A stretch of DNA of 64,000 bases, from IMG/VR virus record IMGVR_UViG_3300045996_000972; one strand, 5' to 3'. Below are positions 11,516-58,107 of this stretch, in pieces. Both the position numbers and the translations under genes were made by a program. Numbering within the stretch: position 1 is the stretch's first letter; each line of letters begins with the position of its first letter. This DNA comes from an uncultured virus (IMG/VR IMGVR_UViG_3300045996_000972). Its lineage: Duplodnaviria > Heunggongvirae > Uroviricota > Caudoviricetes. Under the pieces are notes generated by a model. It saw nothing but the letters and a program-made list of their open reading frames with translations, was not told where the DNA came from and did not search any database.

Positions 11516-11551
11516 TTTTTTATATATTCGTAACTTCAAAACATACCTACC

Positions 11552-11854
11552 ATGTTTACAGTCAAAAATCCCGAAAATCAGTATCAGCTCGTAATTCCAC
11601 AAGCCGTTGCAACCGTTGAAAACACCACAGTAAGACACCAACGCGCTATACCGGAGAGAAACGGGAATCCTAGTGTTTCCGAAAAGTATGATGTTACCGC
11701 AGAGGTTAGCATTTTCGCTTCCGTCGAAGCCTACGAGTCCGGAGCTGCGCCAATAACGCAGTTAAGTAAAACCCTGCCATTCTCCGGATATCCAACGCTT
11801 GATGCGTTAGAAAGCGCGCTGATATCGAAGATCGAGAACGCTGAAGCCCTGTAA
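11552..11854 (+). CDS. hypothetical protein, possibly a fibre chaperone
   Basis: ORF track; follows the fibre; TATATTCG box at 11523-11530. Confidence 0.6.
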   Translation: MFTVKNPENQYQLVIPQAVATVENTTVRHQRAIPERNGNPSVSEKYDVTAEVSIFASVEAYESGAAPITQLSKTLPFSGYPTLDALESALISKIENAEAL

Positions 11855-15300: not shown

Positions 15301-16846
15301 CAAATACGATAAGGACGGGAGATATGTTCAGGTAGACTATTCGGACGAGCTGAAAGACCTGAAAGACGGAGCCCTGATACGCCTGATAAGGCCCAGGCAG
15401 GGAACAACCAAGCAGATATTCCATGAGCTATGCCCCATGATTGACGTGATCAACGGTGTACCCCAGGTATTGTCCGGGACATTCAATTTTTGGGACTCCT
15501 ACTTAATGAACCGGCAGCTTCCAGTCCCGGTGGCCAAGAAAAAGAAGAAGGATCCTGCAACCGGCAACGAAATCGAAACGGAGGAAAATATCAACCAGGT
15601 CAAGTCCTATCCGTTCCTGTTCGAGCACCACTCCCCTTCTGATTTTTGGGGTGATCATTGTTCCCCGAAAGGCAGGATCAATGTAAAAAATCCGCTGGAG
15701 AACGAGATATGTAACCTGACAGAAATAGCGGTGAGCAAGGCCATAGCCAACGATGGAATACTAAACGGGCTGCATTATTTCCGTGAAGAAGATATGATCG
15801 TTTTCGATGAAAACGAATGGGGTGGCATCACCGGGGTACTGGCAGAGCTGAACTATCTTTTGGTGATATGCGAACAGGACAACTTTGTTGTTGCGTTCAA
15901 TGATAACCAGATAAGGGTAGCACCAGACGGCCGCGTGATCGCGCCAAGCGCAGAAAATAGATTTGGCCGTCCAGAGAGGAAAATAGGCAACAACTACGGG
16001 TGCAAGCTGAAGGACGTGAATACCATCCAAAAGTATGATGGCATCACCATGTTTATCGATCGCACCAAGACCGCGCTGGTGCTGCATAATTTCAGCGAAG
16101 CAGTTGACGTATCAGTCAACAGCGTCAAAAGCTGGCTTGGCCACCAGATAAGAAGGGTTTCAGCAGACCCGGAGCTGTACTTCCACGGCTGCATCGATCC
16201 AAAAGCGAAAGACTACATTCTTACATCATTCCAGTTAAAGGGAAGCTACACGGATGCCGATTTCGTAAACACTGCAGATGTTCCAACAAACGGTAACGAT
16301 ACCATCGCGTATAACATTTACAGCAAGATTGTTAAGGGATGGAGATCATACACGCCGGAATACTACGGTATATTGGAAGGAGATCTAACGGATCAGCAGC
16401 TTATCGCTTTCAAGCAAGGAGCGGCATATAAGCACTACAACACTTCCGCGCCTTATGGCAGGTTCTTTGGCGTACAGTGCAAGCCATACATAAGTGTGAT
16501 TTCGAACATTGAGAATACCCGCGTGAAGCGATTCCTGTCAAACGAAGTATATATCGTCGGCGCGAAGTTCGAGGCAGTTGAAGTCGTGACAGAAGCGAAT
16601 CAATTAAGCCGGATAAAGCCAGTGTGGTGGGAGAAGTTCGACACCTTCCAGGCTGCGCCATTCCTGTGCGACCTGAACACTAAAGCGGATTTGAATATAC
16701 CGATCGATACTGGTGTCAATAAATTATTGGATGGCGATACTATGTACGGAAGATGGTTGAAGGTTAAATACACCGTACAGACACCAGACATTGGGAAATA
16801 TTTCGAGTTCACAGCCGTGGTCATAAACTTGATACCGGCAACGTAA
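12305..16846 (+). CDS. tail hub / stabilisation protein (crAss-like), 1513 aa
   Basis: Size and position; N-terminal PFKGVD..SD and C-terminal KRFLSNEV...DGDTMYGRWLKV resemble crAss-like stabilisation proteins. Confidence 0.6.
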   Translation: MPNQKLIPFKGVDIVSDELYTSENHSPFLKDIDYDLNRQSGIEGFNIGAFTPLQGNEPYCSITLPIGNNHVIGTIPIKELNQLLVLVHNSNNNHFVYRLNGATGLCQKVSESSCWNFTLKPENFISPTRYAVQVVCRFNKATGKEEKIPYVFFTDNNDDIKFFVPDDLIATSSYTTPFFSVNDTTCKKCDWFKLGVPTPMDCMTITSIKRDLTDPDEKSKPNLLAYKTWEFRLKYINVYGQDSEHGVIATQYIGVTGNSCVEASDSLARCLKLKFKAGCPIIDKIQIEFRNCSGKADQFTKPTDWFLYDTIDVYNNCDDVQWYDRTRNNPWQSEVNRLVALGSTVAAAEAAATKKQLLKYNSTDNTFEYTFCGNKERTAIPVEETNRSYNPIPITAGALFSIYKNIATARHKRGFKPIDCDELEKIDIVVTKPQAEDPSCKLKLRKITVYGIIYNPFEQGAVEIRREDNKNQFGWADCAKNNPMAYQQYFPDDQEGFIGYLAGTKHFAVSKQHRYTMSTGDIVYQGLDFNIDGNVASRQYAIQKWEFEVLPGKYVFRIASHKAKPTDEYQKTSTYTYGRTFLSNPGSIFNNDREIVVDVTSADVEIKTNPFMIYDLTRKGKGCTLVDATSVVCGYIYEDQDEYLPIERAVARPNRTGQTHFTQYTDHNGFFFAAAPVNRLRVDILGHKNCVASVLLKASKTTADAPFERHFVEEKLYAYEGTDEYNRKDRITIRGRVLLCEDNTIGVAGVLVVLTNGAFGYTDNDGVFAIVAHDDGNVLARAERIIISQRGNCQIAGCSTPVCSYSFTDLNVFFPTCTGSLTRTVSLADTLVKIRGLNKRGPTMGGRYQLGIKVHDWLGRHTYVQTREKHIIDIPSLQDTQTFDFSTIGFTINSSIQLPAYARKLSFFITENLNLDDYLTWVAERIQLVDNSGEPNSAAPTQIRLYYESLGEYNKLHKFTTTTTWQFIDDKEAPVAGDEVEFLANGDGTMFTKVIRALVKYDKDGRYVQVDYSDELKDLKDGALIRLIRPRQGTTKQIFHELCPMIDVINGVPQVLSGTFNFWDSYLMNRQLPVPVAKKKKKDPATGNEIETEENINQVKSYPFLFEHHSPSDFWGDHCSPKGRINVKNPLENEICNLTEIAVSKAIANDGILNGLHYFREEDMIVFDENEWGGITGVLAELNYLLVICEQDNFVVAFNDNQIRVAPDGRVIAPSAENRFGRPERKIGNNYGCKLKDVNTIQKYDGITMFIDRTKTALVLHNFSEAVDVSVNSVKSWLGHQIRRVSADPELYFHGCIDPKAKDYILTSFQLKGSYTDADFVNTADVPTNGNDTIAYNIYSKIVKGWRSYTPEYYGILEGDLTDQQLIAFKQGAAYKHYNTSAPYGRFFGVQCKPYISVISNIENTRVKRFLSNEVYIVGAKFEAVEVVTEANQLSRIKPVWWEKFDTFQAAPFLCDLNTKADLNIPIDTGVNKLLDGDTMYGRWLKVKYTVQTPDIGKYFEFTAVVINLIPAT

Positions 16847-23857: not shown

Positions 23858-25333
23858 ATGTTTTTCAGTAACGCCCCTAAAATTAATACGCAACTATACA
23901 ACATCGACGATTGTTTGAAGTTGCCAGCTTTCAAAGCTGTTCATGAAGCAAGCCGTTCAGGTTCGGTAGAAAACCTGTCAGAATGGGACGCGAACCGTAA
24001 AGCCGAATGGCGCCACTTGGTTCGTGACGCTGTGATCAACCTTGGTGGTGAAAGTATTGACCTGAACTTCTTCAATGAAATGTTCGGCGGAAATATCGAA
24101 ACCATCGACGCGAAAAACCTGTACACGAAGTACAACGCGGACGTTGACTACAACATCGCCGCCCAGGCGGCCGCGACCGGATCAGCTCCCGGTGCAAAGA
24201 AGTGGATCACGCTTGCCAGAGGCTACCATTCCACAAACGGTAAATACTCCTACCCTTCAAAGGGCATGAGCCTGTATATCTACGAAGACGGCCAGAAGCT
24301 GTATGTAGAAGATACTGACCGTTCCGTTGACTACGCCCACAAGCTGTTGGTTACACCGTACAGGAAGAACTACACCGTAAACGTGCGCAAGCAGACACCT
24401 ATCCTGGTGATGCCGGCCCGTATCATCGGCGGAAACTCTTGTATGCTGCCTACCACCACAATGTCAACTCCGGGATACGTGAGCAAGCTCGCGCCGATCC
24501 GTCTGCGTAAAGACTGGTGCACACCGGTTGACCTTATGAAAGGTTACGAAGACATCCTCCAGTGGGCGATCATGTTCGACAAGAACGGTAAAGAGATCGA
24601 TTGCTGGATCACCTACGAAAAGGTGAAAGCATTTGAACAAATGCAGTTGGCGGAAAACCTTGTATTCTTCCTAGGTAACACTATTGACAACCCACTTCTC
24701 CTTGATGTAGTGGTTGACAGCGGTTATACCGGGTTCGATGGCTACCTGCCTACGATCAAGTATGCTGGTGGATTCGTGTACGACTACGATCCTACGTTGG
24801 GCTTCTCGCTCGAACAGGATTATGGTCAGATCATTCTCCGCCAGGATTCTTTGAAAGAGACAAAAGAGTTCTCCGTAATTCACGGCAAGAATTTCATGGT
24901 GAACATGGTTCGCAACTCCAACGAGTTCCTTAAGACGCAGCCCGGCCAGATCGGAATGCAGTCATTCAAGAGGAGCCCAGGCGCGGTTGAGAAATACAGC
25001 ATCACCTCTTACAAGGCGTTCAACAACACGCTTCACTTCAAAGAGTGGGGTTCACTGTCCGATAGCAGGTTACTTGGTAACTACGATATGCCTAACATGG
25101 CGATCATGACACCAACTACCGGCATCAAAGACAGCAAGGGCCGCGCTGTATCTCCGATCGAATTTTATGTACCAAGAGGCTGCGGCGAGAACGGAGCGAT
25201 CGAGGAGCATGATTTCGACCTGAGAGATATCACAGGTTGCGAAGAAATCAAAGGATGGTTGGCTAAAACGCTCATGATGCAAGTTCATGGCGCGAAGAAG
25301 CACATCTTCATCAACCCTGTTGTAAACTGTTAA
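23858..25333 (+). CDS. major capsid protein (crAss-like)
   Basis: 491 aa after the scaffold; strongly biased codons; followed by a terminator; ENLVFFLG...GFDGYLP segment. Confidence 0.75.
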   Translation: MFFSNAPKINTQLYNIDDCLKLPAFKAVHEASRSGSVENLSEWDANRKAEWRHLVRDAVINLGGESIDLNFFNEMFGGNIETIDAKNLYTKYNADVDYNIAAQAAATGSAPGAKKWITLARGYHSTNGKYSYPSKGMSLYIYEDGQKLYVEDTDRSVDYAHKLLVTPYRKNYTVNVRKQTPILVMPARIIGGNSCMLPTTTMSTPGYVSKLAPIRLRKDWCTPVDLMKGYEDILQWAIMFDKNGKEIDCWITYEKVKAFEQMQLAENLVFFLGNTIDNPLLLDVVVDSGYTGFDGYLPTIKYAGGFVYDYDPTLGFSLEQDYGQIILRQDSLKETKEFSVIHGKNFMVNMVRNSNEFLKTQPGQIGMQSFKRSPGAVEKYSITSYKAFNNTLHFKEWGSLSDSRLLGNYDMPNMAIMTPTTGIKDSKGRAVSPIEFYVPRGCGENGAIEEHDFDLRDITGCEEIKGWLAKTLMMQVHGAKKHIFINPVVNC

Positions 25334-27348: not shown

Positions 27349-30204
27349 ATGACAACTGGTTCAAGCCTTATACCGGAGTTTATCATAGAATCGCTTTTTG
27401 ACCTCACAACAACACCTAAGCTGGTTCTGACAAACAAGTCAACAGGAACACAGATCGGTTGTTCGTTCGTCTTTGAGCTACATTCTCCCCACGGATCACC
27501 CATTCATATCGGCACGTTTACCACACCGGACGCATCCGGAGCCTGGACCGACTACACTTTCAGCGAATCCATGCCAGTGGCGTTGGGTTCAATGGAGTTT
27601 GGAACGTACCGGCTTATATGCAAGGTGAATGATGGAACCGACGAGTATTCTTTCGAAAGGAAAATCAACGTAAAAAGACCAGCCGGGAATAAAACCGGAT
27701 CAGGGCACAACTACGGCGCGGGATCTCTTTACAGCCAGGTGAAATGCCATGTTTCTAAAATTTACACTGAAGATCGCAGCGATTATAGCTACAACGGTAT
27801 TACCGGCGATCTGGTATCGCGTAAAATATCCATTCAACCACCGGCTGACAGCACCGGGGTTATCCCACCAGCCACATCGGTATTAGGGTACCAGGCTATT
27901 TCATTCAAAATCCCCTACAACGGCAAGGACTACACGTTATTCCTTGACACCATAATGAGCTATCAGCTCGAAACGTACTCTTATGTAAAAGTCAAATACA
28001 AGGCAAAAGTCTGCTTTGACGTTTTATGTAATGTTGATCTCTGTAAGCTGCTTTGCGAAATCTCAAATTTTGAGGAAAAGGTTCTTTGCAACCCAACGAA
28101 GGAAGACTTGCAGAAATTAACAGCCATTTCCTCCAAAATGACAAGGGTGCTGATCGGCATTACGCAGCCAAGTTGCGATGTTGATGTCACTGCAATCCTG
28201 AAGGAGATCATTGATATCGGCGGATTTGATTGCGCTTGCCTGGACAACACTTGTACAGGGTTGGGCGTTGACACTTGTTGCCCTGAAATTTTGGATGTAA
28301 CCATTTCTTCCGGTGTTACCACGACCACGCAGCTTGTAACTACCACTCAACCCACGACAACATTGGCGACCTGCCCCACACCTCTGAATTTGAGATTAGT
28401 TTCTCAAAACCACTCAAACGGAGAAACCTGCGTTGAGTGGGACACTTTGGTTACTACGAATATCACCGCGCTGAAACTGTATTACGGAAATTCCGCGAAC
28501 AGTTTATCTCAATTTGTAACAGTGCCTAAAGCGAACACTGTTCATTGCGTACTATTGGACCTCCCGCTTACAAAAATGTATTTCAGGCTGGAAGTAGAGT
28601 GCAGCGGATCCTTCACTTACTCAAATCTGGTATTGGTTGATCCTGCCGTAACAATCGGGACTAGCACCACTACCAGTACGACCACCACAACGACGACAAC
28701 GCAGCCGCCGAATTGTATTCTTTACGAGCTGTCAAACCCGGGAGCAACGGATGATAATATTTCATACACGAATTGCAGCGGTGTGCCAACGTCGGGAGTT
28801 CTGGAAGCTGGCGACACGATCCAAATATGCGCAGCAGAAGGCACTGTAATAACAAGCGGTTCAATAGGTGTGGCAGCAATCGGATATTGCGGTGGCGGAA
28901 CCACAACTACGCCGACAACCCAGGAAGCAACGACAACTTCCACAACCACCACCACGACCACTACAACAACAACAGCACCGAACTGTGTGCTGTACCTTGT
29001 AAATAATGATACCGGAAACGGAGATCAGGTCACCTATGTAGATTGTACTGGTGCAGAACAATCAGTGATGGTTTATGCAGGAGAGCAAGCGAAGGTTTGC
29101 GCTTACGAGGGATCACTTTCCGCGACTGTTTCCACTGTTACGATTATTGGCTATTGCGCCGGAGGAACGACCACGCAGCCTACGACTACACAGCCGACGA
29201 CGACTGCAGCTTGCGCCGATTACACGATCGAGAACAATTCTGGTGATGCGCAGGATTACGAATACACCGATTGCCAGGGCAACGTGCACACTGGTTCAAT
29301 TCCTGACGGAGAATCACTTTCGATATGCGTATTGGGCGGAAGCACAATCACTGCACCAGATTGCACGATCACCGGAAATGGAGCTTGTACGACCACAACG
29401 ACCACCACAACGACCACCACGACTACTACAACGACCACCACGACTACGCAGCCGGTTTGTAGCTCGCCTAAGTTCACATTTGAGGTAGACGCTCCGGATA
29501 ATGACGAGGTGGCCTTTACGCTTAACTTCTGGACTGGTCAAGGCGTTATTGTAGATTGGGGCGACGGTAATGTTCAGGCATTCGCATCAGCAATTCAGCA
29601 CGATCTTACGCACACATACGCAGGGGTATATCCTAAAACGGTTAGCGTATGTTTTGACGATTCTGCTGACCTAGCAGGTGTGAGATTGTTCAAGCTGTCT
29701 GATCCTTCGCATAACAATGGTGCAACAGTTGTAAGCAATCTTAGTTCATTCATTAATATGACAGAATTTAGCGCAAGGCGGAACAAGCTCACGGCAATAC
29801 CGACACTTGGAACATCCGTACAGTACTTGACGCTTTCGTTTAATGAATTAACATCGGTAGACAATTTGCCAAACTCAATCGGTTATCTCGCCGTTGACAA
29901 TAACACAAATTTGGTGAACATCATTTCCTTGCCGAGTTCTCTGCAAAGTTTCATGGCGAACAATTCCGCGATCGTTGCGCTTTGCACAATGCCGGTGCCA
30001 AGCAAGTATGTGAACCTTTCCGGAAACGAATTACCTGTAGCCGAGGTGAACCAGGTGCTCGTAGACTTAGCAAACAACGGGCAAACATCAGGGTATCCTT
30101 CAGCAAATCTTAGCAGCCAAACACCGGCAGCACCTCCAAGTGGAGCTGGTGCAACAGCTAAGGCATCACTGATCGCATCCGGATGGTCTGTTAACACTGA
30201 TTAA
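27349..30204 (+). CDS. mucin-like multidomain virion protein: poly-Thr linkers, FN3-like domain, three Cys-rich modules, PKD-like and LRR domains
   Basis: Thr runs up to about 20 residues; CPTPLNL...VEWD...FRLEVEC; VDWGDG; NKLTAIPTL/NELTSVDNL LRRs. Confidence 0.75.
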   Translation: MTTGSSLIPEFIIESLFDLTTTPKLVLTNKSTGTQIGCSFVFELHSPHGSPIHIGTFTTPDASGAWTDYTFSESMPVALGSMEFGTYRLICKVNDGTDEYSFERKINVKRPAGNKTGSGHNYGAGSLYSQVKCHVSKIYTEDRSDYSYNGITGDLVSRKISIQPPADSTGVIPPATSVLGYQAISFKIPYNGKDYTLFLDTIMSYQLETYSYVKVKYKAKVCFDVLCNVDLCKLLCEISNFEEKVLCNPTKEDLQKLTAISSKMTRVLIGITQPSCDVDVTAILKEIIDIGGFDCACLDNTCTGLGVDTCCPEILDVTISSGVTTTTQLVTTTQPTTTLATCPTPLNLRLVSQNHSNGETCVEWDTLVTTNITALKLYYGNSANSLSQFVTVPKANTVHCVLLDLPLTKMYFRLEVECSGSFTYSNLVLVDPAVTIGTSTTTSTTTTTTTTQPPNCILYELSNPGATDDNISYTNCSGVPTSGVLEAGDTIQICAAEGTVITSGSIGVAAIGYCGGGTTTTPTTQEATTTSTTTTTTTTTTTAPNCVLYLVNNDTGNGDQVTYVDCTGAEQSVMVYAGEQAKVCAYEGSLSATVSTVTIIGYCAGGTTTQPTTTQPTTTAACADYTIENNSGDAQDYEYTDCQGNVHTGSIPDGESLSICVLGGSTITAPDCTITGNGACTTTTTTTTTTTTTTTTTTTTQPVCSSPKFTFEVDAPDNDEVAFTLNFWTGQGVIVDWGDGNVQAFASAIQHDLTHTYAGVYPKTVSVCFDDSADLAGVRLFKLSDPSHNNGATVVSNLSSFINMTEFSARRNKLTAIPTLGTSVQYLTLSFNELTSVDNLPNSIGYLAVDNNTNLVNIISLPSSLQSFMANNSAIVALCTMPVPSKYVNLSGNELPVAEVNQVLVDLANNGQTSGYPSANLSSQTPAAPPSGAGATAKASLIASGWSVNTD

Positions 30205-30233
30205 TAACAACAACCAGAAAATAAACCGAGGCC

Positions 30234-30261
30234 GGGGAGCTACCGATGCAGGTAGCTCCCC
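30234..30261 (+). other. perfect 11-bp stem-loop upstream of the glycosyltransferase
   Basis: GGGGAGCTACC-GATGCA-GGTAGCTCCCC. Confidence 0.8.
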
Positions 30262-30285
30262 ATTTCGGGGGAGAGCAAACAAAGT

Positions 30286-31215
30286 ATGAGATTGATTCAG
30301 GTTGTAGAAGACAAGCCGTATTTCGTCTGGCAACTCTATGTTCAAATGATGAATTTCAGAGATCATGGGGTGGAAGAAGAAGCGGTTATTCTTGTTGTCG
30401 GCAACGAGTTGTCGAACGACATGAAGCAGTTGCAAGCATGGACGAAAGCAAAAATTTACTGCTATCCCGACACAAGAAAAAGTCGGACATATATACCGTC
30501 AATACGTCCACACCTACTGAAAAAATACTTTCTTGAAATCGAACAGCCGGAAGTTTTCTTTTATCACGATCAGGATATTATTTTCCTAAAAAAGCCTTTT
30601 CTTGACGAGCTGGCAGCCGGCGATACAAACTACGTTGCGGCGAATGCGGCCAGCTACTTAAACTCCGGGTATTGCAATTCATTTAAAAAGTCGGTATTCC
30701 CTTCCATGTGCGATTTGGTAGGCATCAGCGAAGATCTGGTGCGCGAAAATGATCGGAATTGCGGCGGTGCGCAGTATGTACTGAAAGGGATAGACCACAA
30801 GTTTTGGGAAAAGATGGAGCGGGATTGTGAAAGGCTGTATCGATACCTGATGTTGTTTTTTGAGACAGAAGAAAGGAAGATCCAAATGTGGACTGCTGAT
30901 ATGTGGGCGATATTATGGAACCTTTGGGCAGCCGGTAAAAAGACTGAACACCACGAATCGATCAACTTCTGTTGGCCATGGGATCTTAGGCAAAACGATT
31001 ACGCGATTTTCCATAATTCAGGCATCGCCGGGAATAATGAAAACAACGCCAAAGGCCAGCCTCAATGGTTCAATAAAGGGAAGTTCAGCGGAGACTATTC
31101 CAACAATAGAATGTATCCCTGGGGCCAGCGGTTTGACTTTGTGGCAGGGAACAGCTTCCAGTACTTATACATTCAGTATATATATCGCATATCTGAAATG
31201 ATGGGTAAACTTTAG
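30286..31215 (+). CDS. GT-A fold glycosyltransferase, GT95/GT96 (HPAT/SGT1)-like peptide O-glycosyltransferase
   Basis: PYFVWQ, YIPSIRP, FFYHDQDIIF (DxD), GGAQY, WTADMWA, IFH. Confidence 0.7.
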   Translation: MRLIQVVEDKPYFVWQLYVQMMNFRDHGVEEEAVILVVGNELSNDMKQLQAWTKAKIYCYPDTRKSRTYIPSIRPHLLKKYFLEIEQPEVFFYHDQDIIFLKKPFLDELAAGDTNYVAANAASYLNSGYCNSFKKSVFPSMCDLVGISEDLVRENDRNCGGAQYVLKGIDHKFWEKMERDCERLYRYLMLFFETEERKIQMWTADMWAILWNLWAAGKKTEHHESINFCWPWDLRQNDYAIFHNSGIAGNNENNAKGQPQWFNKGKFSGDYSNNRMYPWGQRFDFVAGNSFQYLYIQYIYRISEMMGKL

Positions 31216-31268
31216 AGCCACCACTGTAGTGCTTTGAAAGTATTCTAATTTGCTGTATAATCCCGAAG

Positions 31269-32360
31269 ATGTATATTCTGATTGAAAAGGTTCAGTTTTC
31301 CGTACAGTCAACAATAAATCAATTTGTTGACGTTTACATTCGAGAGAAAACCTTGCCGGACGTTCCGGCGAACAGGATATTTGTCGGCAATTATGAATTT
31401 TTACCGGATGGAACACCGGTTTCTCCTATTTATATTGACGGATATGCTGCAGGTGATTATGTGGTAATTGGATTGAACAAGTGCAGCTTGTCATTTTCAA
31501 AGCCCGTCACGGTTCTTCCAGCTCCAACGACTACGCAGATCCCGCAGCAAACCACTACCACAATCCCGGTCACGACCACGCAGCCTGCCACGACCCAGGC
31601 CACCACAACGTCACCCGCGACAACGTCAACCACCACCACTACGAACCCTTGCGCTGGAGGACCGTCTTGCCCCGTGATCTACCAACTGGTCACTCCGGCA
31701 CCAGGCGTAACGCCAGTGGGAGCTGGTGGCACCGTCCATGTGCATTTCTTACCGCAGCCTTGCGCGGAACAGTATAAGATTTACGTTCACAAGTTGAGCA
31801 ACGGCGCGCTTCACTCTACCGTACAGGGAACACCTGGGCAATTCTTTTGGGATGCTGGAACGGGCACTTATTACTATCCATTCAACAACATGGATCCGGG
31901 GGAAACATACAAGGTGAAGGTTACAGCATTCATGGGTGGCGTAGAAACAACATCGTGCCCTGAAAGCTATGTTGTCGTACAATCATCCACCACCACCACC
32001 ACGACCACCACAACCACCACCACGACGACAACTACCACTACGGTACCGGACGGCGGGCGGATGCATATACTGAACAATCATGACGGCCAGATCAATTCTG
32101 TGACGCCAGGGTTTTATATCGGTGATACGGGCACATTCCCTATACTGAACGGAGAAGAAGTTCAAACTGTTCACGGAGGATTTACCGGAACAGTAAGTGT
32201 GAATATTTCTGGATCGACAGCAGGAAAGATCACCATGAAGAAAAACGGCGTTCAGATTGGATGCCAGAACGTGACAGGCGGCGGAACCTATTCATTTACC
32301 GGAGTAACATTCTCGTCAACCGATTACATCGAAATCGAAATGTTGACAGGTAATTGCTAA
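31269..32360 (+). CDS. second mucin-like virion protein with poly-Thr linkers and FN3/Ig-like domains
   Basis: Thr tracts about 31525-31645 and 31983-32045; NNMDPGETYKVKVTAF FN3-like motif. Confidence 0.7.
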   Translation: MYILIEKVQFSVQSTINQFVDVYIREKTLPDVPANRIFVGNYEFLPDGTPVSPIYIDGYAAGDYVVIGLNKCSLSFSKPVTVLPAPTTTQIPQQTTTTIPVTTTQPATTQATTTSPATTSTTTTTNPCAGGPSCPVIYQLVTPAPGVTPVGAGGTVHVHFLPQPCAEQYKIYVHKLSNGALHSTVQGTPGQFFWDAGTGTYYYPFNNMDPGETYKVKVTAFMGGVETTSCPESYVVVQSSTTTTTTTTTTTTTTTTTTVPDGGRMHILNNHDGQINSVTPGFYIGDTGTFPILNGEEVQTVHGGFTGTVSVNISGSTAGKITMKKNGVQIGCQNVTGGGTYSFTGVTFSSTDYIEIEMLTGNC

Positions 32361-32369
32361 AACTGAATT

Positions 32370-33119
32370 ATGATCGATTTGTTTGTTTTATGGGAAAAGT
32401 TCACCAGCGGCGTTAATACGCATCAGGGTGGCCATGCCAGGCCACACCGGGAGTTTACGAGTTGGGTGAATGATATCTCTAAGGAAATATTCGAGGAAAA
32501 GTTTAAGAATGGGTGGCAGAAAAGCCAGAAGATCACGGACGATATCGGACAGCCGTTTTTGAAATCGGAACCATTGCCTCTTACTGCGGGATCCGTCACA
32601 TATGATTTGCTGGCATACCCTAGCGATTACGGTCACTTTTCATCCTGCCGCATTTTCCATAAAGAAGGGTCAAACGCAGGAGAGAAAGTTGAATGCTCGA
32701 AGAGAGACAGCCCGGATGTTGCGGAAGAACACTACTACGAGAACCAAGACGAAAACCTTTGCGAAAAAACGATCGATCTTATCGACAATCGCAGGTGGGG
32801 CGCGCTGTGTGAGCATAAAACGAAGAAGCCAAGTTTTGAAAAGCCCTATATGACGCAAACCAATGGAGGATTTAAGATTTCTCCGAAAGGCGTAGGATAT
32901 GTAGTGCTTGACTATTTGAGGCTGCCAAAGGAGGCCACATTCAGCTACACGGTGGGACCAGATGATCAGATCATCTACAACCAGGCGGGAAGCCAGCCGT
33001 TAGAGTGGAGTGAATTATTGATACCCGAATTTTTGGCGCGACTTAGCACCAAGTATGGCAAACGAATCCGGAACGAATTTGTTTACCAAGCTGGCAGCAA
33101 GGAAAAAGCCGACCTATGA
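32370..33119 (+). CDS. tail ring / head-tail adaptor protein
   Basis: YPSDYGH, LDYLRLPKEATFSY...YNQAGSQPLEW resemble crAss-like ring proteins. Confidence 0.6.
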   Translation: MIDLFVLWEKFTSGVNTHQGGHARPHREFTSWVNDISKEIFEEKFKNGWQKSQKITDDIGQPFLKSEPLPLTAGSVTYDLLAYPSDYGHFSSCRIFHKEGSNAGEKVECSKRDSPDVAEEHYYENQDENLCEKTIDLIDNRRWGALCEHKTKKPSFEKPYMTQTNGGFKISPKGVGYVVLDYLRLPKEATFSYTVGPDDQIIYNQAGSQPLEWSELLIPEFLARLSTKYGKRIRNEFVYQAGSKEKADL

Positions 33120-38507: not shown

Positions 38508-41500
38508 ATGGGAAAAATCACCCGCCAGAGCGATAAGTTCAAGAGCACCGATAATCCATTAGCCGGAACGGAAGCAGGAGACGCAACGAATCCGTTGCTT
38601 CAGTTCAACGAGCAGTTAAAAAAAAAAGCCGGTTCGTCCTCTACATCAACCGATGGATCAGCTGGCGGCGAGAAGGTAGAAGACTCACCATCATCATCCA
38701 CTGGTAACAACCCGCTTCTTACATTCAACAAGGAACAAAAACTTGCACCCAACGAGGTCGCAGGTGACTTGCAATCCATTGTTGACGAAGAAAAGAAAAG
38801 AGCCCCTGTTTCTCTTTCCAAAAAAGCATTGGAAGGGGAATCGTTTTTGGATACAGATTTCAGTCAGCATGGTGCCAGCACTGCGGCATTCGATATAAAG
38901 ACCCTTTTGCCGAAACCAATGGGACCGCAGCCAGCTCCGGACCCGTTCACCAGTCATACCCCTAAGCCATACGCGAATAGCAACCTTTTAAAAACGTACA
39001 TCAGCAAGCGCGCCGCTACGGTGGATGCTGAAATAGCCAGGAAGGAGGCCGATATGAAAGAAGCGTACAAGCGCGTTTCAATGTCGGAAATGGTCACGGT
39101 ACGCAATAGCCCAGGATATAAAGCCCGTAAGGCAGATATTGAGGCCAGCAAGTCATACAAAAAACAACTATTTTCTGCGGCAGAGAGCGTAATGACGAAA
39201 CTTGCGGTAGAAGAAAAGTTATCGATCAAATCAAAGAAAGACCTTACCGCGCAGGATTTGGAAGAGGTGGGCGAAATGCGTAGGCTCGTTTCCGGAGATA
39301 CGGAAATTGAAAGAGATCTCGCGAACGTTCAAAAAGCCAAAGGTGCAAAGAAGCACCAGCAGTATACGGAAAAGGTGAAATCCACGAATTTCCTGTACGG
39401 GCAAGACGCGCTCAACAATTACATGGCGGAGTCGCATCAAGAGAAGTTCACTGCCGCGAAGCCCAAGATCGAGCAGATGATTGAGCTGGTTAAGCAGCGC
39501 GATAGCACTTCCAACCAGAAAGAGGCTGTTAAAGCACATGAGCAAATACTGGCACTATCCAAGGACGAAGAAGTTAAGAACTTCATGGACGACCTGAAGG
39601 ATATTTATGACATTCAGACGAAGGGCACAGAGGAATTTAAACAGAAGTATCCGCAGCAGTACAGGGAACAGTTGCGAAGGAAAGCTATCACCGCCTGGGG
39701 AAAGATCGAAGACAGCAAGTTTGTATCAGTCGGCCCGGCTGTAATGAACACATCAGACCCAACAGATGTTTTTGCCGGATTAAAATACTTGTGGTCCAAC
39801 CTTGTTGGAAGCAACCCGGAGAGCGACAAAGACTGGAACGCCATATCCAGAATGACCGGCATACCGGTGGCCACCTTGAAGGACATAAATAAAGACGAGC
39901 TGGAAGGTTGGTTTAGTTCAAATGAAAACTGGTTTGGCGAAAGCGATGCGATCAGGCGACCAGGCTTATTTATGAAGCTAGGTCACAGCTTCGATGAAAT
40001 GGCTTCCAAGTTATTCGTGCAAGGCCCGCGCAGGTTCTTCCGCGTAGAAGACGTGGACCTGAAAAACAAATCCCTGCAAACGAAAATGGAGGCTTTTCAT
40101 TTTCAGCCGCAAGATGATAAACTTATTACCGATCATGGTGATTTCAATTTCAATCCACGATCGATCCTCAACACGATCGGAGAAACTTCCGGCCAGGTTG
40201 CGGTATTCGGAGGACCATCATCAGCCATCGGTGGACTGGTAAAAGGACTTTCGGCGGAAGCTACTGCAGGTGCTAATATCGTCAGCAAGATCGCGACCGG
40301 GGGAACCACATTTACTACCGGGTATCTCGCCAGCTATGAAGACGCCTATCAAGAGGCGGCCAAGTATACCAAGGACGAAGGGAAAAGGAGAGCGTATGCT
40401 TCCTGGGATGCTTTTGCCAATGGCATCAGCGAATTGATATTGCCCGATTCCAAAATACTGGAGTCGATCGCCGGAGCTGGCGGGAAAACAAGTTTCAAGG
40501 CGTTTGAAAAAGCCGTAGCCGAAAAAGGTACCACGATCGCTTTGTTCGAACGAGTAGGAGCTTTCGCCAAAGAGGCCGGGAAGGTTATCGGGGCAGAAAA
40601 TTTGGAAGAGTTCGTGCCGATCATCGTATCATCCTACACGAAGCCCGGAATACTGGACGTTCACCCCGAACCGGGCGAGACAGCAAACGAGTTTATCCAG
40701 TCCATGGTACAAACCACCATAGGAACGCTTGGCATAGGCATAGGCGCGGGTTTAGGAGCTTCCCGAGGCGTTGGCCAGATACGCCGGGAGAGCTTATTTG
40801 AGGCCGGTAATGAGCCGGAGAAGTACATCAACCATTACAACGCATTGGCGGCGGCCGGGAAGATGAACCAAGACGAGGCAAACAAGAATATCCGCATCGT
40901 CAACACCATGACCGGCATCATTAAAGGATTGCCGAAAAACAATCTCAAAGGGAACCCCTTAACATACGATGAAAAGGTCGAATTGGCCGCGCAGCAGTAC
41001 AGGATCAGGATGAACCAGCACATAGCTGACACTTCTCCGATCGATGCGCTGAAAACGACCGCCGAGCAGGATTCTATCGAGGCCGAAGCTGCGCAGCAGG
41101 AAATATTGGAGGGTAAGAGCCCTATTCAGGAAGTGATCACCATGCTCCGGGACAACAAGGCCAGCTTCCCGCTGTATGGCAAGCTAATCGACAGCAATCC
41201 GGAAGAGGTGGTGCGGTTTATCGCTGATCAGGCGCTTGGCAGGGCCGGCGACGGCACCATGTTGGGCGGGAACCAGCGGGAGCAAACGGAAAAGGTATTC
41301 GGGAAAGACCTGGTTGAAAAAGCAATCTCCATTTTCCCTTTAGAGGAAAAAAATGAGCAACCCGCAGAGCCAGCCAAAACACCGGCTAAACCGGTGCCGA
41401 AACAGGATCTTCTTGATGATGCCCTGGATGCGCCCGAAATAAAACCTGAACCCGTTAAAACGACGGAAGTTGTAGCAAAGGTGCCGAAGAAAGATTTACT

Positions 41501-44500
41501 GGACGAGGCATTGAATGAAGACGAGCTGGTGGAAGAACTGGACGTCGAGCCATTCGTTAAGCCGATCGCCATGGACCTGTTAAAGATCGAGCGCGCTGTC
41601 GCAAACAATGGCTACAACATAAGCATTGACTACGATGATGAAATATTGCTCACCGACAAGAAAGGCGACATTGTAGAACCAGACGATGTGCCAGATAGCA
41701 TTAAGCCCATGGTGGAGCAATATGCCACCTACATTGCGAACATTGCTGAAATCGCAGGCAACCCGATGGCCAGGGTGGAGAAGTACAGGAAAGAGCATGA
41801 TGGAGAAGACGCGGAGTTCGAAGTAGTGGAGCCCAATGCACTGCCAGCTCCCACGGTTTCCGAAAAGTACAGCGAACCACAGGACAGCCAGTACGGTAAA
41901 TTCAAAGTATCGATCAAACCTAAAGACGGCAAGCTGGAAGTGGCTGTTGAGGAGCGGGACGAGAAAACCGGCCAGCATAAAAAATCTTCCGCCTATACCC
42001 ATTCTTTCAAAAGCATGGCGGCGGCCGAAAAATACGCGGATGGTGTATTGAAAAAAGACACCACCAAGCCAGAGGCTAAGGTTTCTGACGAGGATCAGAA
42101 ATTGGCGGACCAACTGACAGAGGAAAGAAGGGAGGCCGTTACGAGCCGCTTGATGCGCTTACAGAAGGAATACAATCGGACCCCGGCCAGCTATACGACA
42201 CAATTATCCAATTTAAGGCAAGAGATCCATGCGCTTGCTCAAAAGATCGGCGCAGTAGTACACATGGGCGACGTTACCCATAGCAATTCCCGGAAAACGT
42301 CAAAGCGCGATATAGAACTGAAGGACGCAGAGGGTAAGCCATTGGCCAGAAAGAAATCCCGCATATCGGAAGACGATATTGAAAACGCTATTTCATTAGG
42401 GGATCGATCGCCAGAATTTCAGGCTTTTATTGATGCGGCGATGGATGACATTCTCCACAGCGTCCAGCCAGGCAGCGCATCACGACTGGATAACGGAATG
42501 GCCACCGATCAGATCAAATCAGGGATCAATGCCCTTAAAAAAGGCAGACCGAACAAATACACCTACGATCTTCTGGATAGCCTGGAAACAATGTTCAATG
42601 CCGGATACATTGATTTTGTTCAGTATTCCAGTGGCCATAGTAACAGGCAAGCCGTCCCGGTTGGATATTATACGACCACACAGGAAGCGATAGCCCAGGC
42701 CGTGGATGAATTGGAAGCCGAAGAATTGCAAACGTTCGAAGATCTGAACATTGTGCCAATGGACGTGTTCGATCAGGTGCCGGAATGGTGGGTGAATTAT
42801 TTCGCTGACACGATCACCGAGGAATTGGGTGACGATTTTCTTCCGGAAGATTTCTTGGAAAAGCAAAAAGATTTTGAAAGCATTTATGATGATGCGTTCA
42901 ACGATGATTCCATTTTTAACCTTCAAAATAAAGAGGATGATACAAAAACGGCCAAACGCGCTACGCCTGGCGCAGCGGATCAGCCAATATCCGCAGATAG
43001 TTCAGAAAGAGATATTAAAGAACCTGCTGAAAGCGGCAGCGAGGAAATTGCCGAAGAAGTAAAGCCGAAAACAAAAGAACAGGAGCTCCGGGACCAGCTT
43101 GCAAAAGATAAGGCTGATTTCAAAGAAGCATTGCGGAAGTCAAGAGGCCAAATGAATATGGGTATCGATCCCCAAGTTATCGCTTCCGGTATTAAGCTAC
43201 TGACCAGCTACACCAAACTTGGCATATACAAGTTTTCTGAAATAGCAAGCGACCTGATCAATGATTTTGGCAAAGAGTTCTTTGACGAAGAAAACACCGA
43301 AGCGTTACGCGGAGTGTATTCGTATTATCGCAGCAATCTTCCCAAGGATGAAAGGGGCAAAATGGAAACAGACGACCAGGTGGATGCGGAGATTGAAAAA
43401 ATAAATTCTATCGAGCCAGAAGTTGTGCCTAGTGAATCAATATCGGCAGCGCCTCAAATAACTTTCAACACAACAGCTGACAAAAGCCTTACGGGCGCAC
43501 TGCATCATTTGCAATTACCTTCCGGCACCATATCAGTCGTGGTAGTTCCAGATGGGTTTACAAAAAAAGTTTACGAGCTAACATCAGGGCATCCAATAGC
43601 TTTAACATCAGAGTTTACCGATGAAGGAGCGATAGCAGATATTGTTGATCAGTTGATGGAGAAATCTTTTACTGTCGATAAACTGTATAATAACATATTT
43701 CAGTATGAGCAAACGAATGGATTGAACGGCAAAATCGGTCCAAGAAACGACAGCTTCTATTACAATGAATACAAAAATGAAAGGCTGGCCCAGGAAGAAA
43801 ACAGGCCGTTTGCGCATACAGAGGAACAGCGGGAGTGGTTGCGTAATTTTGCCAAAGAAGCAATTGAAAAAGGGGCAGTTGACATAGCTAGGTTTGCGAC
43901 CCATGCAGTTGACGCGAAAGGCACAGGATGGGGCTTTAGCGAACAGAATTGGCATAGTCGTCTTCAGAATGAACTAGATAAGAGAGAAGTGAGAAGACTG
44001 AGAGCCGCTAATGAACCAATACCGGCTGAGCTGCGGAGCGATTTCAAAGCATTCAATCCGTCTGAAGAAGGGCTAAAAGAAAACCTGCTTGGAAAAACGG
44101 ACAGGACAAACAAGATTGATCCGGAGCTTTATACATCCGTTATACTCCCGGCATGGGAGAAATACGCTACCATATATAACCACTTCGGGTACCTACCAGA
44201 AGATTTTCCTAGAGTTGATAGTTCTGACGCATCAACGCAGGGCCATATCGATCTTCACACCAGCATACTCCTTGCTGCGATACATTCACGTAGCGGAGAT
44301 AAAGAAGCTCGAATTACTGAAGCGACAAAGGACGTGGAAGCTGACGCTGAATTTATTAATATCGTATTTGAGAAATATGGGTTTGAAGCTCCTAGCCCTG
44401 TAATACTCCTTAGCATATACGATGTTCACGCGGATGATGTTATCCGCCACGTCCCTTCGTCTACAAAATACCGGGTGATAAATCCTGATACTGGCGAACT

Positions 44501-57743: not shown

Positions 57744-58094
57744 ATGAAAGAACTTTATAGCTCCCATGCCGACGAGCTGAAGGTGGCCGAAGAACGGCCA
57801 ATCAGGAAAGCTGCCGAGTTTCGCGGCCGCACCCCACTCCGCAAAGGACAAACCTGCTACGAGCTGAACCTGGCTACCGGCGAAATAAAGCCAGCAGAGT
57901 ACGAGACTGTAACCGCGCCATACATGAGCAAGGCAAGCCAGATCGGCTTCCTAATGAGCGGAGGGACCGTTATCGCGGCCGGCAGTACTCACCGGAAGCT
58001 GATGATCCGGGAGGGATGCCTGTATGAGATCGCATTGAACGACACAAATGCCAAGCGAAAGTTTGAAAATCGTCTGGCTCCTTTCAAAAAATAA
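57744..58094 (+). CDS. hypothetical protein
   Basis: ORF track; A/C-rich leader. Confidence 0.6.
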   Translation: MKELYSSHADELKVAEERPIRKAAEFRGRTPLRKGQTCYELNLATGEIKPAEYETVTAPYMSKASQIGFLMSGGTVIAAGSTHRKLMIREGCLYEIALNDTNAKRKFENRLAPFKK

Positions 58095-58107
58095 GGCTCC
58101 ACCCCCA

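What the first reader, a model, noticed from the sequence alone, without database searches (positions are those of the whole stretch)
27349..32360. Candidate phage-encoded virion O-glycosylation system: GT95/96-like transferase between two mucin-like poly-Thr proteins
Seen: inside the head/tail module, a 309-aa protein (30286-31215) with a DxD motif (HDQD) is flanked on both sides by genes whose products carry long Thr tracts (up to about 20 consecutive T, plus TTQP units) separating folded domains. Known: its motif order PYFVWQ / YIPSIRP / DQDIIF..P / WTADMWA parallels, from memory, plant SGT1 (GT96; YFDWQ, YPAINKP, DADMI, WISEMYGY) and HPAT (GT95), which O-glycosylate repetitive peptides. 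Virion glycosylation is known in actinobacteriophages, but I know of no description of this arrangement in crAss-like phages. Inference: the phage makes mucin-like glycosylated stalks that extend adhesive domains from the particle, for shielding, protease resistance or adhesion.
Basis: partly seen in the sequence, partly recalled or inferred. Interest (0 to 1): 0.9.

Follow-up and report, generated by a model that had tools for sequence, protein, structure and literature searches.

The report
Phage sugar-transferase paired with poly-threonine proteins
A crAss-like phage carries an unnamed sugar-adding enzyme between two proteins with long pure-threonine stretches; the same pairing recurs in very different phages, so these phages probably sugar-coat their own particle proteins, although no sugar has been measured.

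Summary
ORFs 27349-30204 and 31269-32360 carry threonine runs of 20 and 18; 22 other large ORFs reach 5 at most. The 309-aa protein between them (phrog_4417, no Pfam hit) folds as a GT-A glycosyltransferase (pLDDT 92) with invariant DxD and His. Its nearest solved folds are glycogenin, LgtC, a Skp1 galactosyltransferase and UGGT (Z 14-15). ESM Atlas models of plant and algal HPAT clusters align at TM 0.73-0.76, but the Pfam HPAT model hit none of 149 homologues.

- **Pairing:** 44 of 80 viral loci with a homologue hold a poly-Thr ORF, 36 within 500 bp. Random viral loci gave 2 of 119 and 0 of 116.
- **Cultured phages:** capsid and tail-tube proteins end in threonine tails.
- **Gain and loss:** relatives without the enzyme lack such tails, and so does this phage's own relative L459.
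- **Against:** only 8 of 85 poly-Thr loci hold this enzyme nearby.

Most likely reading (about 0.78): cytoplasmic O-glycosylation of threonine tracts on particle proteins. No glycan has been shown. Ten literature searches found no description. This scan noted the same pairing earlier on other DNA.

The parts
27349..30204 (+). gpA, 951 aa: a modular 'beads on a string' protein and proposed glycosylation substrate. Its parts are a conserved N-terminal domain (about residues 13-297), an FN3-like stretch, three about 60-aa Cys-containing repeats and a C-terminal LRR-like domain (about 703-951), separated by five Thr tracts.
   Evidence: ORF. Tracts, 16.1% Thr and 34 Cys. The three repeats align. 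The N-terminal domain is 28% identical over 257 aa to the syntenic protein of relative L459, which has no Thr tracts. LRR evidence is lead-level only: Pfam LRR_4 E 0.025, phrog_21719 E 5e-8 on residues 788-912, ESM Atlas scores 0.78-0.83.
28318..28362 (+). gpA Thr tract 1 (residues 324-338, TTTTQLVTTTQPTTT)
28660..28701 (+). gpA Thr tract 2 (residues 438-451, TSTTTSTTTTTTTT)
28930..28974 (+). gpA Thr tract 3 (residues 528-542, TTTSTTTTTTTTTTT)
29167..29205 (+). gpA Thr tract 4 (residues 607-619, TTTQPTTTQPTTT)
29389..29448 (+). gpA Thr tract 5 (residues 681-700, T20; uses all four Thr codons)
30286..31215 (+). GT-A fold glycosyltransferase, 309 aa, PHROG family phrog_4417 (function unannotated). 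It is the proposed polypeptide Thr O-glycosyltransferase. No signal peptide or membrane segment is evident in the sequence.
   Evidence: phrog_4417 E 8e-56. No Pfam family. AlphaFold model pLDDT 92.1, pTM 0.90. Structural matches: glycogenin Z 15.0, Skp1 alpha-galactosyltransferase 14.7, LgtC 14.6, UGGT catalytic domain 14.1, GlyE 13.3. Foldseek LgtC E 1.7e-6. HPAT-cluster models TM 0.73-0.76.
30568..30576 (+). DxD motif (D95-Q96-D97 within YHDQD), the presumed metal and NDP-sugar site
   Evidence: Y93, H94, D95 and D97 are invariant in 29 of 29 aligned homologues.
31012..31014 (+). H243, invariant; presumed third metal ligand, as in the DxD...His arrangement of GT8-type enzymes (that arrangement is recalled, not tested)
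   Evidence: Invariant column. The role is inferred.
31269..32360 (+). gpB, 363 aa: second proposed substrate, with three folded segments separated by Thr tracts
   Evidence: ORF. 19.0% Thr. Weak Ig-like Pfam hit on residues 156-234 (E 0.0019, below the family cut-off). Absent from relative L459.
31551..31643 (+). gpB Thr-rich linker (residues 95-125: TTTTIPVTTT ... TTTSPATTSTTTTT)
31983..32042 (+). gpB Thr tract (residues 239-258, SS followed by T18)
23858..25333 (+). Major capsid protein (context: places the cassette in the structural module)
   Evidence: Model pLDDT 67.6. Best solved matches are phicrAss001 capsid chains, E 3e-14 to 5e-12, TM 0.45-0.49 over the full length.
32370..33119 (+). 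Conserved downstream structural-module gene. In relative L459 its homologue follows the gpA homologue directly.
   Evidence: phrog_14543 'virion structural protein' E 2e-4. 34% identity to L459 15893-16699.

Best explanation
The 309-aa protein is a soluble, metal-dependent GT-A glycosyltransferase of an unannotated, phage-wide family (phrog_4417). It most likely works in the infected cell's cytoplasm, taking a host nucleotide-sugar and attaching sugar to the hydroxyl groups of threonines in homopolymeric Thr tracts of phage particle proteins, before or during assembly.

In this phage the substrates would be the eight Thr tracts of the two flanking proteins, gpA and gpB. The result would be stiff, protease-resistant, mucin-like glycosylated linkers between small folded domains.

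What is shown:
- the fold and the invariant DxD and His residues;
- the very tight and repeated gene linkage with poly-Thr ORFs;
- gain and loss of the enzyme together with the tracts;
- the position of the cassette in the structural module.

What is inferred:
- that Thr is the acceptor;
- that the chemistry is retaining (alpha-linked sugar), because all the closest solved folds are retaining enzymes;
- that gpA and gpB are on the virion;
- the biological role (shielding, rigidity or adhesion).

The donor sugar is unknown.
For: Enzyme:
- The model is confident (pLDDT 92.1). The best structural matches are all nucleotide-sugar GT-A transferases, and several of them act on proteins: glycogenin Z 15.0, Skp1 alpha-GalT 14.7, LgtC 14.6, UGGT 14.1, GlyE 13.3 (Foldseek).
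- D95, D97, H243, the G161-A-Q-Y164 motif and W202/D205/M206/W207 are invariant in 29 of 29 homologues.
- 17 of 120 further homologues scanned are fused to a second glycosyltransferase domain (Glyco_transf_7C, GT2, GT6, GT29, Gly_transf_sug), as in glycan-building enzymes.

Linkage:
- 44 of 80 IMG/VR loci with a homologue hold a poly-Thr ORF (67 ORFs in 1.32 Mb).
- Random viral loci gave 2 of 119 and 0 of 116 in an AT-rich set.
- 36 of 80 loci have the poly-Thr ORF within 500 bp of the enzyme gene. Density falls from 47 per 100 kb below 500 bp to about 0.9 beyond 4 kb. 66 of 67 ORFs are on the same strand.
- The pairing holds in 22 of 42 enzyme clusters at 70% identity.

Cultured phages, 7 of 7 examined:
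- Thr tails sit at the extreme C-termini of annotated capsid or major tail proteins (iLp84, phiFL1A, Lactococcus 1706, VPE25) or of phiCTP1 gp18, the protein encoded just before the enzyme gene; or tracts lie on adjacent small or large ORFs (Iacchus, Chryseobacterium MA9V-3).
- A tail at a chain end cannot serve as a linker.

Gain and loss:
- In genus Coetzeevirus, R3.3 has the enzyme. Its capsid and tail proteins end ...TTTTTTKAPTTTTTSSHA and ...TTTTTTSHA, and these are the only Thr tracts in its genome.
- phiJL-1, ATCC8014 and phiLpTT2 lack both. So do AS1, SPP1, Javan47 and phiEf11.
- Sources; positive control.

This window's own lineage:
- Relative L459 keeps the order portal-like gene, capsid, gpA N-terminal domain, downstream genes.
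- It lacks the enzyme, gpB and every Thr tract.
Against: - No glycan, mass shift or enzyme activity has been measured for any member. All evidence is comparative.
- The reverse association is weak. Of 85 IMG/VR loci with a poly-Thr ORF picked by an (ACN)10 pattern, only 8 hold this enzyme in the fetched DNA, and 2 of the 16 with full 10-kb flanks. So most phage poly-Thr tracts have no such gene nearby.
- Other Pfam glycosyltransferases lie beside poly-Thr ORFs in only 4 of 44 further loci, against 1 of 67 control loci. That difference is not decisive.
- 36 of 80 enzyme loci have no strict poly-Thr ORF in the DNA held. A looser Ser/Thr criterion did not separate them from controls (25 of 36 against 111 of 235).
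- Many of the 80 loci are related low-GC aquatic phages, so the counts are not independent events.
- The virion location of gpA and gpB is not shown. No match was found to solved structures or cultured phages.
- The window-specific comparison rests on one distant relative (capsid protein 30% identical).
Confidence: 0.78

Rival explanations
1. The enzyme glycosylates something other than phage protein, such as host envelope glycans (receptor masking or serotype conversion) or phage DNA. On this reading it sits near fibre genes only because that region accepts inserted genes, and the Thr tracts are plain flexible linkers.
For: The fold alone does not reveal the acceptor. LgtC and WbbM, both among the top matches, act on lipo-oligosaccharide and polysaccharide. 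In Lactobacillus phage Iacchus the gene lies outside the structural module, next to a glycerophosphodiester phosphodiesterase. Most poly-Thr loci lack the enzyme.
Against: - The linkage is at the level of neighbouring genes and on the same strand (36 of 80 loci within 500 bp, 66 of 67 same strand).
- Thr tails at the C-termini of capsid and tail-tube proteins appear only in phages with the enzyme.
- In Iacchus the two ORFs just upstream are small poly-Thr proteins.
- No hydroxymethyl-pyrimidine or other DNA-modification pathway was seen beside the gene in the window.
Confidence: 0.08
2. The enzyme does modify phage proteins, but it is not the initiating Thr transferase. It would extend a sugar that a host enzyme puts on first, or act on other residues (for example Tyr, as glycogenin does).
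For: Several close structural matches extend existing glycans (UGGT, the Skp1 galactosyltransferase, XXYLT1, GlyE) or modify Tyr (glycogenin). Several invariant Tyr residues exist in the family.
Against: The window and many small phages (R3.3, iLp84) encode only this one glycosyltransferase, in hosts as different as Bacteroidota and lactic acid bacteria. A common host-supplied first step is therefore unlikely. Where extra glycosyltransferase domains occur, they are fused to this one, with this domain N-terminal in most cases.
Confidence: 0.09
3. The protein is a structural particle component that has kept a glycosyltransferase-like fold without catalysis.
For: Its gene lies among structural genes in siphoviruses, between the major tail protein and the tail chaperones or after the capsid gene.
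Against: The catalytic-type residues are invariant across 29 sequences that are only 30-50% identical. In the Lactococcus phage 1706 record its neighbours are annotated 'structural protein' while this product is 'unknown'. That is the depositor's annotation, and I have not seen its basis.
Confidence: 0.03

Closest known systems
Virion glycosylation of mycobacteriophages (Freeman et al. 2023, Cell Host Microbe). The paper itself is not held. I know it from a passage in PMC12619734 and from recall.
   Same: Phage-encoded glycosyltransferases decorate the phage's own particle. [quoted passage not shown] That is exactly where the Thr tails lie in iLp84, phiFL1A, 1706, R3.3 and VPE25.
   Different: The hosts differ: Bacteroidota-type crAss-like phage, lactic acid bacteria, enterococci, clostridia and aquatic phages. 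The enzyme family here is unannotated. The acceptor is a homopolymeric Thr tract, which in this window forms internal linkers of fibre-like proteins rather than C-terminal tails. Whether the mycobacteriophage enzymes are related was not tested.
Plant and algal hydroxyproline O-arabinosyltransferases (HPAT, CAZy GT95, Pfam PF23452) and peptidyl-serine alpha-galactosyltransferase SGT1 (GT96)
   Same: Both are GT-A enzymes that put the first sugar on repetitive, extended peptide tracts (that function is recalled). ESM Atlas models of three HPAT clusters align with this protein over residues 1-309 at TM 0.73-0.76, and two of the listed phage clusters carry the HPAT Pfam label on 10% of members.
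   Different: No HPAT Pfam hit was found in 149 homologues. The presumed acceptor is Thr, not hydroxyproline or Ser. The protein is soluble and cytoplasmic rather than Golgi-anchored. GT96 could not be compared, because no model or sequence was available from the tools.
Retaining GT-A enzymes of CAZy GT8, GT24 and GT77: glycogenin, LgtC, UGGT catalytic domain, Skp1 alpha-galactosyltransferase, and S. pneumoniae GlyE (which I recall acts on a serine-rich repeat adhesin)
   Same: These are the best solved structural matches (Z 13.3-15.0, 205-241 residues aligned). They share the DxD plus a distal His. Several act on proteins in the cytoplasm.
   Different: Sequence identity is 9-12%. The Pfam GT8 model does not match. 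rmsd is 3.2-4.0 A. The family has conserved blocks of its own (PYFxWQ, SIRP, GGAQY, WxADMW).
Glycosylation by giant viruses of their own particles (chlorovirus PBCV-1 A64R; mimivirus enzymes)
   Same: The viruses encode the machinery for decorating their particle proteins. PBCV-1 A64R (2p6w, Z 10.3) and mimivirus R699 (9dyt, Z 10.1) share the fold. Two of the 80 loci come from contigs labelled GVMAG (giant-virus bins; L061, L062).
   Different: Those matches are weaker than the GT8-type ones, and the chemistry and acceptors differ.
Mucin-type O-glycosylation of Ser/Thr-rich tandem repeats (animal GT27 enzymes) and glycosylated Ser/Thr-rich disordered regions of streptococcal surface proteins (PMC12041528, seen as a search listing and abstract start only)
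   Same: In both, Thr/Ser-rich low-complexity tracts act as dense O-glycan carriers and extended spacers.
   Different: The enzyme families and cell compartments differ. Here the tracts are almost pure Thr, and the system belongs to a virus of bacteria.

Membership tests
GT-A fold nucleotide-sugar glycosyltransferases | Single Rossmann-like alpha/beta/alpha domain matching solved GT-A enzymes | tested here: met
   pLDDT 92.1. Z 13-15 to glycogenin, LgtC, UGGT, Skp1 GalT and GlyE over 205-241 residues. 308 Foldseek PDB matches at E <= 0.001, led by GT8-type enzymes.
GT-A fold nucleotide-sugar glycosyltransferases | DxD motif after the central strand | tested here: met
   D95 and D97 (YHDQD) are invariant in 29 of 29 homologues.
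GT-A fold nucleotide-sugar glycosyltransferases | Binds an NDP-sugar and a divalent metal and transfers sugar | not testable with these tools
   Needs biochemistry.
CAZy GT8 (Pfam PF01501 Glyco_transf_8) | Match to the family profile | tested here: not met
   No Pfam family was found for the window protein at E <= 0.1, and none of 29 homologues matched at E <= 10.
CAZy GT8 (Pfam PF01501 Glyco_transf_8) | DxD plus a distal His-x-x-Gly ... Lys block (motif recalled from memory) | tested here: inconclusive
   H243, G246 and K264 are invariant. No residue-level superposition was available.
CAZy GT95, HPAT (Pfam PF23452) | Match to the family profile | tested here: not met
   0 of 149 homologues matched: 29 at E <= 10, 30 at E <= 0.001, 90 at E <= 0.01. 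The local Pfam copy reports other PF23xxx families, so it should hold this model, but I did not confirm that directly.
CAZy GT95, HPAT (Pfam PF23452) | Same fold over the whole domain | tested here: met
   ESM Atlas: three HPAT clusters at TM 0.73-0.76 with 278-283 residues aligned. Both sides are predicted models.
CAZy GT95, HPAT (Pfam PF23452) | Acceptor is hydroxyproline in Pro-rich peptides | not testable with these tools
   The neighbouring tracts are Thr with few Pro (TTTQP units only). The window encodes no recognised prolyl hydroxylase.
CAZy GT96, SGT1 | Sequence or profile similarity | not tested
No model or tool-derived sequence of GT96 was available.
Phage virion glycosylation systems (mycobacteriophage type) | Phage-encoded glycosyltransferase plus acceptor extensions on capsid and tail-tube subunits | tested here: met
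   This was met at the sequence level in relatives, not in this window: Thr tails on capsid and major tail proteins of iLp84, phiFL1A, 1706, R3.3 and VPE25, beside the enzyme gene. In the window the tracts are internal linkers of gpA and gpB.
Phage virion glycosylation systems (mycobacteriophage type) | Glycan shown on virion proteins | not testable with these tools
   Needs mass spectrometry or glycan staining.
crAss-like phages (order Crassvirales), as context | Capsid protein of the phicrAss001 type; large terminase related to the group | tested here: inconclusive
   The capsid model's best PDB match is the phicrAss001 capsid (E 3e-14), but pLDDT is only 67.6. The terminase matches Flavobacterium and Cellulophaga podophages at 28% identity. 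No taxonomic assignment was made.

The most novel reading that the evidence does not exclude
One unannotated enzyme family (phrog_4417) would be the general initiating polypeptide Thr O-glycosyltransferase of tailed phages. Its range is about 830 stored stretches in IMG/VR, 1051 cluster representatives in the 1.84-billion-protein library and 75 cultured-phage records. A bare run of threonines would be its portable acceptor tag. Phages of Bacteroidota, lactic acid bacteria, enterococci, clostridia and aquatic hosts would then make 'phage mucins': glycan-coated capsids, tail tubes and fibre stalks. The system would be gained and lost as a cassette and would share its fold, and perhaps its ancestry, with the plant and algal enzymes that glycosylate extensin-type peptides. 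It would also offer a minimal genetically encodable glyco-tag: one small soluble enzyme plus a poly-Thr tract.
Probability: 0.55. Interest if true: 0.85.

Novelty: new variant of a known kind. Interest (0 to 1): 0.8.

Why it matters
Self-glycosylation of phage particles has, to my knowledge, been shown experimentally only for mycobacteriophages. If this family does what the genomics indicates, the following would follow.

- **Spread:** sugar-coated particles would be common across phages of many bacterial phyla, including dairy and gut phages and crAss-like phages.
- **Phage therapy and ecology:** glycan coats affect antibody recognition, protease resistance, particle stability and adhesion to mucus or polysaccharide. 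All of these matter for phage therapy, for dairy phage control and for gut phage ecology.
- **Annotation:** about a thousand protein clusters now labelled 'hypothetical' would gain a function, and the poly-Thr tracts seen in phage structural proteins would gain a meaning.
- **Testability:** cultured, harmless systems already exist with natural controls that lack the enzyme (Lactobacillus phages R3.3 or iLp84 against phiJL-1).
- **Tool:** a one-enzyme, one-tag cytoplasmic O-glycosylation module could be useful in glyco-engineering.

Tried and rejected
- **Sequence search of solved structures.** The family profile found only chance matches (TAL-effector repeats, E 0.057). gpA's N-terminal part, gpB and the downstream 249-aa protein also found nothing significant.
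- **Pfam.** Scans of the enzyme and 148 relatives gave no family for the catalytic domain.
- **Loose Ser/Thr criterion** (at least 8 of 12). It hit 111 of 235 control loci, so it is uninformative and was dropped.
- **First control attempt.** A query with the window's endolysin returned no relatives. It was replaced by two arbitrary 14-mer samples of IMG/VR.
- **Relatives of this phage.** None were found in IMG/VR with the capsid protein or its alignment.
- **gpA in cultured phages.** Its N- and C-terminal parts have no tblastn match.
- **phiEf11 lead.** A paper (PMC5221750, passages read) reports capsid and tail proteins migrating heavier than predicted and suspects a modification. phiEf11 has neither the enzyme nor Thr tails, so this is not evidence for the system.
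- **Whole genome.** None is held for this window.
- **Literature.** Ten full-text searches found no paper describing this family, poly-Thr acceptor tracts in phages, or HPAT-like phage enzymes. Subscription journals are mostly not covered.
- **Complex prediction.** Not used, because an enzyme with its substrate is outside what that test resolves.

Full report
**Observation.**
The three ORFs are as described.
- gpA (27349-30204, 951 aa) has five Thr tracts, up to T20.
- gpB (31269-32360, 363 aa) has three, up to T18.
- The 309-aa protein between them has YHDQD at residues 93-97.

The gaps between the genes are 81 and 53 bases, and all three lie on the + strand. In 22 other large ORFs of the window the longest Thr run is 5. 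By the criterion of at least 9 T in 12 residues, only these two ORFs qualify in 64 kb. The tracts use all four Thr codons in mixture, so selection acts on the amino acid and not on a DNA repeat.

**Context.**
ORF 23858-25333 models as an HK97-type capsid protein whose best solved match is the phicrAss001 capsid (E 3e-14, full length). The model is only moderate (pLDDT 67.6). The large terminase (58048-60273) matches phrog_6681 and, at 28% identity, the terminases of Flavobacterium and Cellulophaga podophages. No other glycosyltransferase or sugar-nucleotide gene was recognised in the window.

**The enzyme.**
- It has no Pfam family, but matches PHROG phrog_4417 ('unknown function') at E 8e-56.
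- An alignment of 29 homologues (30-50% identical) shows invariant Y12, W15, Q16, Y69, R74, Y93-H-D95, D97, G161-A-Q-Y164, W202, D205-M-W207, H243, G246 and K264.
- The AlphaFold model is confident (pLDDT 92.1, pTM 0.90).
- An exhaustive structural comparison puts it among GT-A transferases: glycogenin Z 15.0, Skp1 alpha-galactosyltransferase 14.7, LgtC 14.6, UGGT catalytic domain 14.1, WbbM 13.8, GlyE 13.3, LARGE1 13.0. Identity is 9-12%. Foldseek agrees.
- To my knowledge all of these are retaining enzymes, which is the basis for inferring an alpha-linked product.
- In the ESM Atlas, three eukaryotic clusters whose aligned part is Pfam HPAT (PF23452) align at TM 0.73-0.76 over residues 1-309. 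Some phage clusters carry that label on 10% of members.
- The HPAT profile itself hit none of 149 homologues. GT96 could not be tested.

**Spread and fused forms.**
The family is large: about 830 stored stretches in IMG/VR, 1051 cluster representatives at E <= 0.001 and 75 cultured-phage records. Of 120 further homologues scanned, 17 are fused to a second glycosyltransferase domain (Glyco_transf_7C, GT2, GT6, GT29, Gly_transf_sug), one to a methyltransferase and one to a radical-SAM/SPASM domain. This fits an enzyme that starts a glycan which others extend.

**The pairing.**

| Set of loci | Loci with a poly-Thr ORF |
|---|---|
| Best 80 IMG/VR loci with a homologue (1.32 Mb, mean GC 32%) | 44 of 80 (67 ORFs) |
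| Random 14-mer sample (1.13 Mb, GC 49%) | 2 of 119 |
| AT-rich 14-mer sample (1.15 Mb, GC 36%) | 0 of 116 |
| Subset of the AT-rich sample with GC below 38% | 0 of 82 |

- None of the 235 control loci encodes the enzyme.
- 36 of 80 loci have the poly-Thr ORF within 500 bp of the enzyme gene.
- Density falls from 47 per 100 kb below 500 bp to 6.7, 3.3, 0.8 and 1.0 in the farther bins.
- 66 of 67 ORFs are on the same strand as the enzyme gene.
- The pairing is seen in 22 of 42 enzyme clusters at 70% identity and in 5 of 8 at 50%. The loci are nonetheless not independent.
- In these aquatic phages the tracts are mostly internal (63 of 67), in large proteins with a median of 546 aa, as in this window.

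**Cultured phages.**
In all seven examined, the gene sits next to Thr-tract proteins.
- In the siphoviruses it lies directly after the capsid gene (iLp84) or the gene annotated major tail or major structural protein (phiFL1A, 1706).
- In phiCTP1 it follows gp18, whose role is not annotated. In VPE25 the upstream gene is unannotated.
- The annotated capsid or major tail proteins carry Thr tails at their very C-termini. Examples:
  - iLp84 capsid ...VPTTTTTTTSK and tail ...ETTTTTTTSK;
  - Lactococcus 1706 capsid and tail, both ending in a run of nine or ten Thr followed by HHD;
  - phiFL1A gp45 and gp50;
  - VPE25 tail protein.
- phiCTP1 gp18 ends in such a tail too.
- A tail at the end of a chain links nothing, which argues against a pure linker role.
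- It matches the sites reported for mycobacteriophage glycans (passage in PMC12619734).

**Gain and loss.**
- Homologous tail proteins occur in phages with and without the enzyme.
- In genus Coetzeevirus, R3.3 has the enzyme. Thr tails on its capsid and tail proteins are the only Thr tracts in its genome.
- phiJL-1, searched whole, has neither.
- ATCC8014, phiLpTT2, AS1, SPP1, Javan47 and phiEf11 also lack the enzyme in the whole record (positive control). They also lack the tails.
- The iLp84 and phiEf11 capsid C-termini are alignable apart from the inserted T7.
- For this window's own lineage, the 54.8-kb metagenome contig behind L459 keeps the gene order and the N-terminal domain of gpA (28% identity over 257 aa). 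It lacks the enzyme, gpB and any Thr tract.

**What weakens the case.**
- Nothing biochemical is known.
- Only 8 of 85 poly-Thr loci sampled from IMG/VR have this enzyme in the DNA held. In all 8 it is adjacent.
- Other Pfam glycosyltransferases lie beside poly-Thr ORFs in 4 of 44 further loci, against 1 of 67 controls.
- Thr tracts therefore often exist without a nearby glycosyltransferase. The enzyme may lie elsewhere in the genome, other enzymes may serve, or many tracts may be unglycosylated.
- 36 of 80 enzyme loci show no strict tract in the DNA held, and some of these are cut close to the gene.
- That gpA and gpB are on the particle, and that gpA's C-terminal LRR-like domain binds anything, are inferences from weak signals.

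**Mechanism proposed.**
Late in infection the soluble enzyme uses a host UDP-sugar and Mn2+ or Mg2+, bound by D95, D97 and H243. It O-glycosylates the Thr runs of gpA and gpB in the cytoplasm. The dense glycans turn the runs into extended, protease-resistant stalks that space out the small Cys-rich repeats, the FN3- or Ig-like domains and the LRR-like end. The fold, the conserved residues, the linkage and the gain and loss are shown. The acceptor, the sugar, the linkage type and the role are inferred.

**Comparison with what is known, and novelty.**
The kind of system, a phage glycosylating its own particle, is known from mycobacteriophages. The following were not found in ten full-text searches:
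- this enzyme family;
- the poly-Thr acceptor;
- the breadth across phage groups;
- the HPAT-like fold.

I therefore rate it a new variant of a known kind.

The scan's own notes show that the same pairing was reported before on at least eight other windows, with the same reading. Those notes are unchecked AI notes and are not counted as evidence. The tests here were run independently on this window's family.

Noticed in passing
window 38508-54122 (+): A single 5204-aa ORF. Its C-terminal half carries Eco57I-type methylase, ResIII, SNF2 and Helicase_C domains. The N-terminal 2500 aa have no Pfam family. It sits just before a 1001-aa ORF and the terminase. It could be a giant particle-carried methylase-helicase, perhaps for anti-restriction, but this is untested.
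   Followed up: partly
window 4382-11515 and 12305-16846 (+): Two further giant ORFs (2377 and 1513 aa) have no Pfam or PHROG family at E <= 0.001. The 2377-aa one is 12% Thr but has no runs longer than 3.
   Followed up: no
P0132 (658 aa, homologue); L337:1865-4863: One homologue is fused to radical-SAM and SPASM domains. Separately, a poly-Thr locus without this enzyme has, side by side, a radical-SAM/SPASM protein, a Pfam 'GlcNAc' (PF11397) glycosyltransferase and a 2OG-Fe(II) oxygenase. This looks like another peptide-modifying cassette beside Thr tracts.
   Followed up: no
L321 (Lactococcus phage 1706) 5432-7492 and 8202-8939: The capsid/protease fusion protein and the major structural (tail) protein end with the same motif, a run of nine or ten Thr followed by HHD. 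It looks like a shared tag copied onto two unrelated proteins.
   Followed up: partly
L320 (Lactobacillus phage Iacchus, Herelleviridae) 7919-11633: Here the enzyme gene lies among replication-region genes. It is preceded by two small proteins (168 and 128 aa) that are mostly Thr tract, and followed by a glycerophosphodiester phosphodiesterase. The small poly-Thr proteins may be free decoration proteins.
   Followed up: no
L455 (record named Aeromonas phage AS1) 1431-4861: Its capsid C-terminus and its tail protein closely resemble those of Lactobacillus Coetzeevirus phages: the last 40 capsid residues are near-identical to those of ATCC8014, and the tail protein is 52% identical to phiFL1A's. 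That is odd for a phage said to infect a Gram-negative host, so the host label may be wrong.
   Followed up: no
window 1711-2547 (+) and 62652-62954 (-): There are strong matches to DUF5131 (E 3e-75) and DUF6166 (E 5e-17), both families of unknown function. The genes after about 61 kb lie on the opposite strand, and the AT skew changes sign there.
   Followed up: no
PMC5221750 (phiEf11 structural proteins): The paper reports capsid and tail proteins running 4-8 kDa heavier than predicted and suspects an unknown modification. phiEf11 has neither this enzyme nor Thr tails, so that anomaly remains unexplained by the present system.
   Followed up: yes
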